Shown piece by piece: positions 8,119 through 11,807 of a stretch of DNA of 19,318 nucleotides; the stretch's first letter is position 1; every line of letters begins with the position of its first letter. The position numbers were made by a program, and so were the translations under genes. The DNA is from a virus (taxonomy: Duplodnaviria; Heunggongvirae; Uroviricota; Caudoviricetes). The notes below the pieces were generated by a model. It saw nothing but the letters and a program-made list of their open reading frames with translations, did no database searches and was not told where the DNA came from. The stretch is from the IMG/VR virus record IMGVR_UViG_2537561980_000013; one strand, written 5' to 3'.

Positions 8119-8778
8119 ATGGAAAGAAAAAACGCCAATATTGACGATGTTATAAGGACAGTTGAAACCGCCAGCGCGAAAGAGCTGGAAGAGCTTGCAG
8201 GTATTCGGGAAGCTGTTGAAGATTTGAAAGGGGAACGAGTTGCAACTGTTGATCCTGTCTCTCGCAGTGTGTCGGCATTAAATCGCACAATCGAAAATTC
8301 ACGTCCTGACTTTGTGACCAATGCGCCATCAGTGGACCCTATTGTTGACGCAATAAAACGGCTTAATTTAGGGGACGTTTCTCGTATACGGGAGGACAAA
8401 GTCACTAACCGTGCACAGCAGGCTGCACCAACAGCGCACAATCCCCCAAATAGACGAAGAGAGGCAATAACAGAGGATGTTAAAGCACAGCGGTTAGAAA
8501 CGGTCAAACTCGCTCGTGATTTGAAAGGGGAACGCGTTGCAACGGTTGACCCAGTATCTCGCAGTGTGTCGGCATTAAATCGAACAATCGAAAATTCCCG
8601 GCCAGACTTTGTGGCCAATGCGCCATCAGTAGACCCTATTGTTGACGCAATGAAACGGCTTAATTTAGGGGACGTTTCTCGTGTAGTTCAGGAGGGCATT
8701 GCTCAACAGGAACAGCAGGCCAAATCAACTACACCAAAGGGTAAAAACGACGCAGGAAGGCTATACCAGAGGATATAA
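8119..8778 (+). CDS. Repeat-containing N-terminal portion of the tape measure protein, separated from the main ORF by a 1-nt frame break
   Basis: ORF track. Contains two 55-aa repeats; the linker motif RRxAIxED[VI]KAQR recurs in the -1 frame immediately upstream of the 8817 ATG. Confidence 0.6.
   Translation: MERKNANIDDVIRTVETASAKELEELAGIREAVEDLKGERVATVDPVSRSVSALNRTIENSRPDFVTNAPSVDPIVDAIKRLNLGDVSRIREDKVTNRAQQAAPTAHNPPNRRREAITEDVKAQRLETVKLARDLKGERVATVDPVSRSVSALNRTIENSRPDFVANAPSVDPIVDAMKRLNLGDVSRVVQEGIAQQEQQAKSTTPKGKNDAGRLYQRI
8221..8682 (+). repeat. Tandem direct repeat, two ~165-bp units (8221-8385 and 8518-8682) with 297-bp period, coding
   Basis: Nucleotide and amino-acid repeats read directly (DLKGERVATVDPVSRSVSALNRTIENSRPDFV[T/A]NAPSVDPIVDA[I/M]KRLNLGDVSR). 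A third partial unit begins near 8748. Confidence 0.85.
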
Positions 8779-8816
8779 AGGCACAACGGACCGAAGCAGC
8801 CGAACACGCTCGCGAA

Positions 8817-11807
8817 ATGTTCGATCAAAAAGGCGGTGCGCAAAAAAGCCAAAACCAACGCGATGCGCGTGGTCGTTTTATTGGAAAGTCAGGGAGTAAG
8901 GCCGCAGCGGAAGATGCCCGTGCTGAACGTGCTGAAAAGGCCAGGCGCAAAGAGGATGATGAGCGTCTAAATGCTGAATCAGGTTTATTAAAAAAACTGT
9001 CAAAAGTAGCTGAAGGCATAGGTAACCCTTCAGAGACTCGTGCCGTTGATGCGTTAGGTTATGCCGTTGCTGGTCCATTGTGGGCAGCAGGGAAGGAGCT
9101 TGGCGGGATATCAAAAGAAGTTGGTGGATCGCTTAATGGTGCCAGAAAGTCTATTGCCGATGTGATTCGTGGCAATGACGATAACAGCCGTAGAAAAGGT
9201 TTTTTTAGGCGTAAATCGCAAAATAGTGCCGATGTCGTTCAGGTTAACACCCAAAAACGGACAGTTCAGGAACTTCAGGAGCAGACCAGCGAAATTAAAG
9301 AGGGCAATGACAAGATTCTCAGCGCCCTTGATCAGATAGCCAAAAACACCGGGAAAAAGAAGGGCGGCTTGCTGTCCAAACTATTTAGCCTGTTAGGGAA
9401 GGGGGCCGGTGGCGTCGCGTCGTTGTTAATGGGGCGTGGCATGCTGAAAAAAGCTGGAGCACTCGCTTTTGGCGCTCTGGGGGCAAAGAAACTTGTAGGA
9501 ATGCTACGCGGTGGTGGCAAGAAGACTATCGCCCATGAAGGTGGAGATTTGGCTGCCCGGGCAGCAGGTAAACTTGGATTAAAGGCAGTTGGTAAAGGGG
9601 CGTTACGCGCAATTCCCTTAGTCGGCACAGTGGCTGGAGGTATTTATGATGCGGTAACCGGTTGGAATGATACAGAAGCGCAACGTCGAGCGTTTGGGCT
9701 TAAATCAGGACAAGATCCATCATTCCAGCAAAAAGCCGCTTATACGTTAGCCAATGTTCTTGATATGGGGGGACTGGTATCTGGTATTAGCAGCGCCATT
9801 GGTGAGGTTCTCAAATCACTTGGATTTGAGGATATCGGCAATATGTTGCAATCATTTTCGACGGAAAGTATTGCCCAGGCCATTGATAGTGGGATTACCA
9901 ACTTAGAAACATATATTTCTAACCTTGGCGACACCATTTCTACCAAGTTCGAAGATTACACAGCAAAGATTGGTGATGCTGTTTCAGCATGGTTTAGCGA
10001 TACATCTAATAAGCTGCTTGAAAAGCTGGATGCCATCAAAGACTTCTTTACTGTTGATAACCTGAAACAGGTTTTCAGTGATGCAATTGATAGTGCAATT
10101 GATTTCATTAAGAACCCAGGGAAACACATTAAAGAGGCGGCTGGTAATATTTGGGATGGGGTTAAAAATTTACCTGGTAAAGCATTAGATGCAGCGGTTG
10201 ATGCCGTTAAAAATACCCCTGCGGCAATGATTGTATCAAAAATACCCAATCCGATCGGCGAGGCTAATGCGAAAGAAATCGCTCCAGAGTTAAAAGCTCC
10301 GGTTAATAGCCACCAGGAGACATCTGATTCTAAAACTGAATCCGATGCCAAACAGACTAATATTGTTACCCGCGTGATAAATGCGGCACTGGACACGGCG
10401 AAAGATAGCAATAAAACAGTTAAAGAAACTGCGAATCAGATTATCAATGCAAATGCCGCAGAAACGGGCAATAGCGCGTTGCAGAAAATTGATAAAGCTA
10501 TTGGTCAAAATAGCTCGTCATCATCGTCGCTTAATACCACTGGCACCAGGAATGACATTCAGAAAGCTGCGGATACCTACAACAATGGCCGCTTGGATGT
10601 AAAAGTCGGAAGTCTTGGATCTGAAGGTAAGGCAAATCTCGATAAGTTGGCTCCGTATTTTGCTGAACTAGAGAATAAATATGGTCTTCCAGAAGGCACT
10701 CTTTACGCGATTGCTGCAACTGAATCTGGTGGTAATCCGTATGCAAAATCCCAAACCGGTGCTCTGGGAATGTTTCAGTTCACGGGGATTGCTCGTGAAG
10801 AGACTGGCTTAGCTGAAGGTGAATCGTTTGATCCTGTGAAATCGGCAGAAGCTGCGGCTCTTCTCATGAGCAAGTATCTGAAGCAAGCCAATGGAGACTT
10901 AAACGAGGCCATCACTGCATATAACGCTGGGTTTGGCACTATCAATAAGTGGAAAAAAGGCACAGGTGACTTATCGAAAGAAAACCGTGAGTACGCGATC
11001 AAGGTCAATACTCATCGTGCTCGCTATTTAGGTGGTGAAATCTATACACCTGGAGCAGGAGCACAGGGTGGGGCGCAATATGGAGTGAGGGGACCACTGC
11101 CTGATAACGCTGTTATCGATCAGTCTACTGGCCTGGCGTTTACCCCTGGTGATAGCCCGTTTGAGAAAGGCGGTCTGGTAGACAAAATCGGCAATGCTGT
11201 TGGCGTTAACGATCTGGTCAACAAATTCATGAATGGCCGGGGTATGCGTCGGGAAGTCGTTCAGGGAACGCTCGAAGAACGTGCACGAGGGAAGGGGACC
11301 GCAACAGCAGCTGGCAATGTGTATGTTGATACTCCGATGCCAGTTGAAGAGGCGCGTCCGGTGACCAGCAACTCAAGTTACTTTGACCAACTCGGCGCAC
11401 AAATGGGGATTGATGGACTATTCGATAAACTCCGCAACTCGCCGGGGATGCGGAAAAATAATGCGCCTGAACCAGCCTCCACGTCCCAGGTGACGACTGC
11501 CGCCAACGATTTGCAGCAACCAACCGGTCGTATGCAGATAGACGGACAGGTTATTAGTGACCTTGGTGGTTCCGGTGCCAAGCCGACAATGCAGTTGGCT
11601 GATAATACCGTTTCACTTGATGGTGAAACGAAGCGGCTGTTTGCGCAGATGACCTCATTACTTGCCAGGATTGAAGAGCACACCAAAGACTCGGCGAAAG
11701 GCCAGGGAACTGTCGTAAAGGTCAGCACGCCTCAGCCGGGCGTTATGCGCACGGTACCACTGTCAATTGATGATCCGTTGATGAATGACTACGCGAGAGT
11801 TGATTGA
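8817..11807 (+). CDS. Tail tape measure protein (main ORF) with internal lytic transglycosylase (SLT) domain
   Basis: ORF track (996 aa). Gly/Ala/Lys-rich hydrophobic segment typical of tape measure proteins; SLT motifs AIAATESGGNP ... GMFQF ... AYNAGFG around nt 10640-10960. Weak RBS at 8817, consistent with the true start being 8119. Confidence 0.8.
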   Translation: MFDQKGGAQKSQNQRDARGRFIGKSGSKAAAEDARAERAEKARRKEDDERLNAESGLLKKLSKVAEGIGNPSETRAVDALGYAVAGPLWAAGKELGGISKEVGGSLNGARKSIADVIRGNDDNSRRKGFFRRKSQNSADVVQVNTQKRTVQELQEQTSEIKEGNDKILSALDQIAKNTGKKKGGLLSKLFSLLGKGAGGVASLLMGRGMLKKAGALAFGALGAKKLVGMLRGGGKKTIAHEGGDLAARAAGKLGLKAVGKGALRAIPLVGTVAGGIYDAVTGWNDTEAQRRAFGLKSGQDPSFQQKAAYTLANVLDMGGLVSGISSAIGEVLKSLGFEDIGNMLQSFSTESIAQAIDSGITNLETYISNLGDTISTKFEDYTAKIGDAVSAWFSDTSNKLLEKLDAIKDFFTVDNLKQVFSDAIDSAIDFIKNPGKHIKEAAGNIWDGVKNLPGKALDAAVDAVKNTPAAMIVSKIPNPIGEANAKEIAPELKAPVNSHQETSDSKTESDAKQTNIVTRVINAALDTAKDSNKTVKETANQIINANAAETGNSALQKIDKAIGQNSSSSSSLNTTGTRNDIQKAADTYNNGRLDVKVGSLGSEGKANLDKLAPYFAELENKYGLPEGTLYAIAATESGGNPYAKSQTGALGMFQFTGIAREETGLAEGESFDPVKSAEAAALLMSKYLKQANGDLNEAITAYNAGFGTINKWKKGTGDLSKENREYAIKVNTHRARYLGGEIYTPGAGAQGGAQYGVRGPLPDNAVIDQSTGLAFTPGDSPFEKGGLVDKIGNAVGVNDLVNKFMNGRGMRREVVQGTLEERARGKGTATAAGNVYVDTPMPVEEARPVTSNSSYFDQLGAQMGIDGLFDKLRNSPGMRKNNAPEPASTSQVTTAANDLQQPTGRMQIDGQVISDLGGSGAKPTMQLADNTVSLDGETKRLFAQMTSLLARIEEHTKDSAKGQGTVVKVSTPQPGVMRTVPLSIDDPLMNDYARVD

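What the first reader, a model, noticed from the sequence alone, without database searches (positions are those of the whole stretch)
8683..8820. Tape measure gene split by a 1-nt frame break at an A5 tract
ORF 8119-8778 and the tape measure ORF 8817-11807 are in different frames. The linker motif encoded at 8452-8493 (RRREAITEDVKAQR) recurs at 8748-8789 (RRRKAIPEDIKAQR) in the tape measure frame, upstream of its annotated ATG, and the spacing between repeat units is 297 bp upstream but 296 bp here. The single missing nucleotide maps to the AAAAA run at 8743-8747. The 8817 ATG has no convincing RBS. The tape measure protein was therefore ancestrally about 1230 aa starting at 8119. The present state is a pseudogene, a sequencing error, or a -1 slip site.
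Basis: seen in the sequence. Interest (0 to 1): 0.5.

Follow-up and report, generated by a model that had tools for sequence, protein, structure and literature searches.

The report
Phage P1 tape-measure gene, one-base sequencing error
The two reading frames are the two halves of one ordinary phage P1 tail tape-measure gene (sit), separated by a single missing A in a run of six A's that is most likely an error of the old 454 sequencing method and not biology.

Summary
ORF 8119-8778 and ORF 8817-11807 are the two halves of sit, the tape-measure and cell-wall-cutting protein of phage P1. They are in different frames because the A run at 8743-8747 has five A's, where relatives have six.

Inserting one A gives a 1229-aa protein identical to Sit of the sister plasmid in E. 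coli DEC7D. Intact single ORFs were found in P1, phi456 and every other relative I read. Among several hundred finished plasmids and genomes, only one shares the exact A5 sequence.

The window is the start of GenBank contig AKNH01000050.1. A re-assembly of its reads begins with a Roche 454 barcode. A separate assembly, AASAUA010000060.1, matches the window at every other base over 11.1 kb, shares its rare 12-nt deletion, and has six A's. Other draft assemblies of the same era (DEC2C, DEC7A, DEC7C, DEC8A) show similar one-base shortfalls in long A/T runs.

- **Most likely:** a 454 homopolymer undercall (about 0.72).
- **Rival:** a real, very recent frameshift in a prophage already disabled by an IS2 insertion (about 0.23).
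- **Not supported:** programmed -1 frameshifting. There is no slippery heptamer, no stimulatory RNA structure and no conservation.

The finding is ordinary.

The parts
8119..8778 (+). 5' part of sit as it reads in the deposited sequence: 219 codons, of which the last 11 codons plus the stop are out-of-frame read-through after the A run
   Evidence: It matches phrog_2533 positions 1-134, twice because of the internal repeat. The start is the same as annotated sit in P1, phi456 and many plasmids.
8743..8747 (+). A5 run, the site of the one-base shortfall. Relatives have A6 followed by C, or A7 through a synonymous CGA>AGA change
   Evidence: Alignment A1. MAFFT alignment with six finished plasmids. 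IMG/VR allele counts: 22 A6C, 7 A7, 1 A5C and 1 A6 without the C. AASAUA010000060.1 is identical to the window over 11.1 kb except for A6 here.
8748..11807 (+). 3' part of sit in the -1 frame, open from 8745. The ATG at 8817 is internal Met234 of the intact protein. The stop is at 11805-11807
   Evidence: It matches phrog_2533 positions 135-1130. After inserting one A, the product equals DEC7D Sit (1229 aa) with no differences.
8221..8517 (+). First copy of the 297-nt (99-aa) N-terminal module of Sit
   Evidence: the repeat finder family D1. P1 has one copy, this plasmid two and pEC15-3 three.
8518..8813 (+). Second copy of the module, 296 nt here because of the missing A
   Evidence: 233 of 297 aligned positions are identical once a one-base gap is placed at the A run.
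10656..10985 (+). Lytic transglycosylase (SLT) domain of Sit, residues 847-956 of the repaired protein
   Evidence: Pfam PF01464, E = 3.4e-27, 94.8 bits against a cut-off of 21.3.
7156..8037 (+). pmgB, the gene immediately upstream of sit. It is essential for tail formation and has been proposed as the tape-measure chaperone
   Evidence: phrog_1854 'PmgB-like', E = 1e-154. Annotated as pmgB in P1. Role as described in PMC9024508.

Best explanation
The region 8119-11807 is a single gene, sit of a P1-like plasmid prophage. Sit is the tail tape-measure protein and carries a lytic transglycosylase domain. The apparent split into a 219-aa and a 996-aa ORF comes from one missing A in an A6 run (read as A5 at 8743-8747). 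This is most likely a homopolymer undercall of Roche 454 pyrosequencing carried into the draft assembly AKNH01000050.1. In the real DNA the gene is probably intact and encodes the same 1229-aa protein as in the sister plasmids.

Shown directly:
- The identity of the gene.
- The one-base difference.
- The 454 barcode on the re-assembled reads.
- The existence of an otherwise identical independent assembly with A6.

Inferred: that the missing base is an artefact and not a very recent mutation.
For: 1. **One gene.** The window is 96-99% identical to P1-type phages and plasmids, where sit is one ORF of 1140-1273 aa starting at the 8119 equivalent. Both fragments map colinearly on phrog_2533. The SLT domain is present.
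2. **Repair.** Adding one A gives a protein identical to DEC7D Sit.
3. **Rarity in finished records.** The exact A5 sequence occurs in 1 of 244 matching PLSDB plasmids and 1 of 288 matching complete E. coli records. Both hits are CRE1540 p1540-3, which NCBI marks as frameshifted and whose neighbouring gene is also frameshifted. No A5 copy was found in the GTDB or JGI metagenome collections.
4. **Platform.** The window is AKNH01000050.1, positions 1-19318. The Logan re-assembly of SRR063724 is identical to the window over 5348-17296. It begins with ACGCTCGACA, which is 454 barcode MID2.
5. **Independent resequencing.** Contig AASAUA010000060.1 (GCA_012248985.1) carries the 12-nt bplA deletion, which is otherwise private to this plasmid. 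It matches the window at every one of 11,105 positions except this tract, where it has A6 and an intact 1229-aa Sit.
6. **Same error type in drafts of the same era.**
   - DEC2C differs from a near-identical twin by four one-base deletions in about 10 kb. All four are in A/T runs of 7 or more, and one is in this same sit tract (A7>A6).
   - DEC7A has a private A5>A4 in tub.
   - repL reads T6 in DEC2C, DEC7A, DEC7C, DEC8A and AKNH, on several different haplotypes, but in only 2 of 518 finished records.
7. **Within this window.** In a 15.4-kb alignment with six finished plasmids, the only private one-base indels are the window's two. Both are deletions in A/T runs of 6 or more.
Against: - DEC7C (AIGC01000010.1) is a separate assembly of a different isolate and carries the same A5 and the same repL T6. 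The pattern across DEC7D, DEC7A, DEC7C and AKNH is nested like an inherited series.
- The other homopolymers of 6 or more bases in the window agree with relatives. An error model therefore needs this site to be especially error-prone.
- The re-assembly from reads also gives A5, so most reads probably say A5.
- repL T6 also occurs in three recent drafts of unknown platform.
- I could not read the raw reads, the SRA metadata or the DEC genome paper. The platform of DEC7C and of AASAUA is therefore inferred, not shown.
Confidence: 0.72

Rival explanations
1. A real, very recent frameshift mutation (A6>A5 by replication slippage) has turned sit into a pseudogene in a P1-like prophage that was already defective. 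IS2 had interrupted the tail-fibre gene S, which removed selection on the other lytic genes. repL (T7>T6) and sit then decayed in the branch leading to DEC7C and the AKNH strain.
For: - A5 and T6 are shared by two separately assembled isolates (AKNH and DEC7C). These differ from each other by 3 SNPs and a 12-nt indel, while DEC7D has neither change.
- The pattern is nested: T6 in DEC7A, DEC7C and AKNH; A5 in DEC7C and AKNH.
- The IS2 insertion in S is shared by AKNH, DEC7C and DEC7D, and the short-read contig AASAUA ends exactly at its edge, so the prophage really is damaged.
- Homopolymer slippage is the commonest natural source of frameshifts.
Against: - AASAUA010000060.1 shares the lineage-specific 12-nt deletion and shows no SNP in 11.1 kb, yet has A6. 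A real mutation would have to be younger than that split and also be shared with DEC7C, which lacks the 12-nt deletion. That combination is incompatible with a simple tree.
- Frameshifts at this tract and at repL T7 are concentrated in drafts of one era and are nearly absent from finished genomes.
- Between the near-identical DEC7 plasmids, one-base indels are as numerous as SNPs. That signature fits sequencing error better than evolution.
Confidence: 0.23
2. The A5 state is functional. Ribosomes shift -1 at GGU AAA AAC, or RNA polymerase slips on the A run, to make full-length Sit alongside a short 219-aa product, as in phage tail-chaperone genes.
For: - The needed shift is -1.
- A Lys-tRNA on AAA next to more A's can slip at low frequency.
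- The product would have the ancestral sequence (..GKKRRR..).
- Only a few tape-measure molecules are needed per virion.
Against: - There is no X XXY YYZ heptamer in the only productive interval, which lies between the -1-frame stop at 8742-8744 and the zero-frame stop at 8776-8778. The one formal heptamer, A AAG GGU at 8736, runs straight into the -1-frame stop.
- The 92 nt downstream fold less stably than shuffled controls (z = +1.73; 196 of 200 shuffles fold at least as well).
- Five A's are, from general knowledge, too few for efficient transcriptional slippage.
- The two-frame arrangement is not conserved. All other homologues examined have one ORF.
Confidence: 0.03
3. These are two genuinely separate genes: a small N-terminal protein and a 996-aa tape measure with its own start at 8817.
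For: Several annotations in public records call a 996-aa product starting at this ATG.
Against: In the records with a 996-aa call that I inspected (DEC7D, L039, L040, L065), the ORF is open and in frame all the way back to the 8119 equivalent. The 996-aa call is therefore only a start-site choice by the annotator. There is no RBS at 8817. The repeat motif continues across the boundary.
Confidence: 0.01

Closest known systems
Sit of bacteriophage P1 (gp037, YP_006507.1; 'structural injection transglycosylase', now assigned as the tape-measure protein)
   Same: - About 96% DNA identity.
- Same start and same neighbours: tub and pmgB upstream, pmgA and bplA downstream.
- SLT domain near the C-terminal third.
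- Colinear with phrog_2533.
- P1 Sit was found in virions by mass spectrometry and is essential (PMC9024508, PMC10695390).
   Different: This copy has two 99-aa N-terminal modules instead of one, so it is 1229 aa after repair against 1140 aa. As deposited, it is one base short in the A run.
Sit of plasmids in E. coli DEC7D (AIGD01000003.1) and of contig AASAUA010000060.1
   Same: The protein is identical after repair. The DNA is identical over 11.1 kb.
   Different: Those records have A6 and an intact 1229-aa ORF.
Homopolymer undercalls in 454-era draft assemblies, and the 'frameshifted' pseudogene flags of NCBI's PGAP annotation pipeline
   Same: A one-base deletion in an A/T run. The reads carry a 454 barcode. 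Sister assemblies show the same kind of change. The one finished record with A5 is flagged as frameshifted.
   Different: The same undercall appears in two assemblies (AKNH and DEC7C), which is unusual for random error.
Programmed -1 frameshift sites (lambda G/GT tail chaperone, dnaX, IS3-family transposases)
   Same: Two overlapping frames in a tail-gene cluster, with the second in the -1 frame.
   Different: There is no slippery heptamer, no stimulator and no conservation. A true site of this class lies elsewhere in the window: the A AAA AAG of IS2 at 18183-18189 on the minus strand.

Membership tests
P1 Sit / phage tape-measure protein with SLT domain | Full-length colinear similarity to P1 Sit | tested here: met
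   About 96% DNA identity to P1 sit. The fragments map to phrog_2533 positions 1-134 and 135-1130.
P1 Sit / phage tape-measure protein with SLT domain | Lytic transglycosylase (SLT, PF01464) domain | tested here: met
   E = 3.4e-27, residues 847-956 of the repaired protein.
P1 Sit / phage tape-measure protein with SLT domain | Position between the tail tube / pmgB genes and the baseplate genes pmgA / bplA | tested here: met
   The gene order in the window matches the P1 annotation.
P1 Sit / phage tape-measure protein with SLT domain | One uninterrupted reading frame | tested here: not met
   As deposited, the frame breaks at 8743-8747. It is met after adding one A and in the identical contig AASAUA.
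Programmed -1 ribosomal frameshift site | Slippery heptamer X XXY YYZ in the zero frame at a productive position | tested here: not met
   Only U AAA AAC lies in the productive interval. A AAG GGU at 8736 leads into the -1-frame stop at 8742-8744.
Programmed -1 ribosomal frameshift site | Downstream stimulatory RNA structure | tested here: not met
   8749-8840 folds at -13.7 kcal/mol against a shuffle mean of -18.7 (z = +1.73).
Programmed -1 ribosomal frameshift site | Two-frame arrangement conserved among homologues | tested here: not met
   29 of 31 IMG/VR contigs and all but one of the finished records are in frame.
Programmed -1 ribosomal frameshift site | Measured frameshift product | not testable with these tools
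   This needs a reporter assay or proteomics.
Sequencing artefact (454 homopolymer undercall) | Reads come from a platform prone to homopolymer errors | tested here: met
   The Logan contig of SRR063724 starts with 454 barcode MID2, ACGCTCGACA.
Sequencing artefact (454 homopolymer undercall) | Independent sequencing of the same DNA gives the longer run | tested here: inconclusive
   AASAUA010000060.1 is identical over 11.1 kb, shares the private 12-nt deletion and has A6. I could not confirm that it is the same isolate or that it comes from Illumina data.
Sequencing artefact (454 homopolymer undercall) | The change is private to one assembly | tested here: not met
   DEC7C carries the same A5.
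Phase-variable (contingency) homopolymer locus | Long tract with several lengths among close relatives in reliable assemblies | tested here: not met
   The tract is only 6-7 nt. Out-of-frame lengths are confined to 454-era drafts and one assembly with several frameshifted genes.

The most novel reading that the evidence does not exclude
The A6/A7 tract in sit, and the T7 tract in repL, are real slippage hot spots. They repeatedly switch off lytic functions in P1-like phage-plasmids, acting as a reversible domestication switch. Occasional -1 ribosomal slippage on the shortened tract would keep a trickle of full-length tape-measure protein.
Probability: 0.04. Interest if true: 0.4.

Novelty: not a real feature. 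Interest (0 to 1): 0.06.

Why it matters
It matters mainly for annotation quality. The 219-aa and 996-aa proteins deposited for this and sister assemblies are two halves of one known protein. The same applies to the 192-aa and 89-aa RepL fragments. None of them should be treated as separate gene families or as evidence of recoding.

If the deletion were real, it would be one more lesion in an already defective P1-like prophage. Either way, nothing new about tape-measure biology follows from it.

Tried and rejected
- **Random sequencing error.** I first set this aside because DEC7C and a re-assembly of the reads share A5. I revived it as a site-specific 454 error after finding the 454 barcode, the DEC2C pattern and the identical A6 contig.
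- **Programmed frameshift.** Heptamer scan, downstream fold and conservation were all negative.
- **Two separate genes.** The 996-aa calls in other records turned out to be start-site choices on ORFs that are in fact intact.
- **Recurrence of A5.** Searches of GTDB genomes and JGI metagenomes found none.
- **Strain name and platform.** Literature searches for AKNH, SRR063724 and GCA_000268125 gave no hits. The DEC genome announcement (PMC3370608) is not held.
- **Reaching repL on the AASAUA contig.** I tried through the 188-aa neighbouring protein, but that protein is too common and the contig was not returned.
- **Identity bands of short BLAST queries as an allele count.** This works for exact alleles only. 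The DEC2C-type allele needed its own query.
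Full report
**What is in the sequence.** The ORF list shows 8119-8778 (219 aa) and 8817-11807 (996 aa) on the plus strand. The second ORF lies in the -1 frame of the first, since 698 = 3x232+2.
- Translation confirms RRREAITEDVKAQR at 8452-8493 in the first frame. It also confirms RRRKAIPEDIKAQR at 8748-8789 in the second frame, upstream of the 8817 ATG and just after a -1-frame stop at 8742-8744.
- A 297-nt direct repeat (8221-8432 / 8518-8729, 84% identity) is present. The two motifs are 296 nt apart.
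- The run at 8743-8747 is AAAAA.
The one weak point is the RBS argument. My crude Shine-Dalgarno scan found nothing before 8817, but also nothing before the true start at 8119.

**What the gene is.** The region is 96-99% identical to P1-type phages (Punavirus) and to hundreds of P1-like plasmids of E. coli.
- In P1 the equivalent of 8119 is the annotated start of sit, a single 1140-aa ORF lying between pmgB and pmgA/bplA.
- In phi456 (99.4% identical) sit is a single 1231-aa ORF with the same two-module repeat.
- Six finished plasmids that I fetched all have one ORF of 1140-1239 aa. All seven further diverse loci in which the start was found read as one ORF of 1124-1273 aa.
- The two fragments map to consecutive parts of one PHROG profile: phrog_2533 positions 1-134 and 135-1130.
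- The C-terminal part carries an SLT domain (PF01464, E = 3e-27).
- Published work places Sit in the P1 virion, assigns it as the tape measure, and finds it essential. PmgB, just upstream, is proposed as its chaperone (PMC9024508; PMC10695390).

**The lesion.** Aligned with P1 and phi456, the window lacks one A of an A6 run.
- Inserting one A gives a 1229-aa protein identical at every residue to Sit of the DEC7D plasmid.
- In a 15.4-kb MAFFT alignment with six finished plasmids, the only private one-base indels belong to the window: this one, and T7>T6 at 1415-1420 in repL.
- The exact A5 sequence occurs in 1 of 244 matching PLSDB records and 1 of 288 matching complete E. coli records. Both are CRE1540 p1540-3, where NCBI flags sit and the neighbouring gene as frameshifted.
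- In IMG/VR the tract reads A6C in 22 contigs, A7 in 7 (a synonymous CGA>AGA change), A5C in 1 (CRE1540 again) and A6 without the C in 1.
- No A5 copy was found in the GTDB genome set or the JGI metagenome set.

**Where the window comes from.** Exact-protein look-ups identify the window as the first 19,318 nt of GenBank contig AKNH01000050.1 (GCA_000268125.1).
- The Logan re-assembly of run SRR063724 is 100% identical over 5348-17296, including A5.
- Three nearly identical plasmids come from the DEC7 clone, serotype O157:H43 (PMC4959244).
  - DEC7C has A5 in sit and T6 in repL.
  - DEC7A has A6 in sit, T6 in repL and a private A5>A4 in tub.
  - DEC7D has A6 and T7, so both genes are intact.
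- These plasmids differ by only 0-3 SNPs in 14-18 kb, so one-base homopolymer differences are as numerous as substitutions.

**Real mutation or artefact.** At first the sharing of A5 by AKNH, DEC7C and the Logan re-assembly looked like inheritance. Four later results point the other way.
- **454 origin.** The Logan contig begins with ACGCTCGACA, the Roche 454 barcode MID2. The reads are pyrosequencing reads, and the re-assembly is not independent of that platform's homopolymer bias.
- **DEC2C.** This is an unrelated O55:H6 strain from the same genome project. Its sit is split at the same tract, but starting from the A7 allele (A7>A6). Against a near-identical twin it shows four one-base deletions in about 10 kb, all in A/T runs of 7 or more, and only 2 SNPs in that stretch.
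- **repL T6.** It appears in DEC2C, DEC7A, DEC7C, DEC8A and AKNH on several different haplotypes, each next to T7 relatives at a distance of 0-7 SNPs. Only 2 of 518 finished E. coli records have it.
- **AASAUA010000060.1 (GCA_012248985.1).** This is the most telling result. The contig carries the 12-nt in-frame bplA deletion that is otherwise private to this plasmid. It ends exactly at the IS2 edge, as short-read assemblies do. It matches the window at every one of 11,105 positions except this tract, where it has A6 and an intact 1229-aa Sit.

A real A5 mutation would have to be younger than the split from that contig and yet be shared with DEC7C, which lacks the 12-nt deletion. That does not fit a simple tree. 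A site-prone 454 undercall explains all of it. I put the artefact at about 0.72 and a real recent frameshift at about 0.23. I could not read the raw reads, the SRA metadata or the DEC genome paper, so this remains an inference.

**Programmed frameshifting.** The only productive interval for a -1 shift lies between the -1-frame stop at 8742-8744 and the zero-frame stop at 8776-8778.
- That interval contains no X XXY YYZ heptamer, only U AAA AAC. The formal heptamer A AAG GGU at 8736 leads straight into the stop.
- The 92 nt downstream fold less well than shuffled sequence (z = +1.73).
- The two-frame state is not conserved.
- From general knowledge, five A's are too few for efficient transcriptional slippage.

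I give this reading about 0.03. The 'two separate genes' reading is refuted. Records in which a 996-aa product is annotated turn out to have an open frame back to the 8119 equivalent.

**Context if the lesion were real.** The prophage is damaged in any case. IS2 (17267-18597) interrupts the tail-fibre gene S in AKNH, DEC7C and DEC7D, and the AASAUA contig stops at its edge. A real frameshift in sit would be ordinary decay of a defective prophage.

**Verdict.** The feature is the known P1 sit gene carrying a one-base shortfall in a homopolymer. It is most likely a 454 sequencing artefact and otherwise a trivial pseudogene. It is not novel and is of low interest.

Noticed in passing
window 1098-1942 (minus strand); T run at 1415-1420: repL, the initiator of P1 lytic replication, is split into 192-aa and 89-aa ORFs by T7>T6. 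The same shortfall appears in DEC2C, DEC7A, DEC7C and DEC8A and in three recent drafts, on several haplotypes. Only 2 of 518 finished E. coli records have it. It is probably the same kind of 454 undercall.
   Followed up: yes
window 17267-18597: A complete 1331-bp IS2 interrupts the tail-fibre gene S, giving 803 codons instead of about 1339. The 5-nt flanks (CCTAT / ACGGG) are not a target duplication. The DNA after IS2 differs between AKNH (an SLT gene and type III secretion genes) and DEC7C (chromosomal ynf-type genes). The joins are therefore either IS2-mediated rearrangements or assembly joins through IS2 copies.
   Followed up: partly
window 18183-18189 (minus strand): The A AAA AAG motif lies in the overlap of the two IS2 transposase ORFs (121 aa and 301 aa). 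From general knowledge, this is the programmed -1 frameshift site of IS3-family elements. It is a real slip site in the same window, for contrast with the sit tract.
   Followed up: partly
window 12932/12933 (bplA, 12160-13581): A 12-nt in-frame deletion (473 aa instead of 477). Among the sequences examined, it is seen only in this plasmid, the Logan re-assembly of SRR063724 and contig AASAUA010000060.1. It served as a lineage marker.
   Followed up: yes
window 8221-8813; L001, L004: The 99-aa N-terminal module of Sit varies in copy number: one in P1 (1140 aa), two here (1229 aa) and three in pEC15-3. Sit length ranges from 1110 to 1273 aa across ten further loci. If this region counts toward the ruler, tail length could differ between P1-like phages.
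   Followed up: partly
window 7802-8107 (annotated in some records as a 38-aa ORF at 7991-8107): An ORF in the +1 frame overlaps the end of pmgB, the proposed tape-measure chaperone. It fills the gap up to 12 nt before the sit start. It has no Pfam match, and no ORF exists in the -1 frame. Whether it is translated is unknown.
   Followed up: no
L004 (NZ_CP060921.1, pEC15-3), about codon 505 of sit: The three-module sit copy has a different frameshift further downstream, after ..NSRRK. That probably explains why no protein is listed for it in PLSDB.
   Followed up: no
L045 about position 18362 (DEC7C), outside the window: In an intergenic T7-A-T7 site near parB, DEC7C is one T short and DEC8A is two T's short relative to other assemblies. 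This is another long-homopolymer shortfall in the DEC drafts.
   Followed up: no
window 1-441: The contig starts inside an IS4-family element (IS421-like transposase fragment). The AKNH contig therefore begins at a repeat.
   Followed up: no
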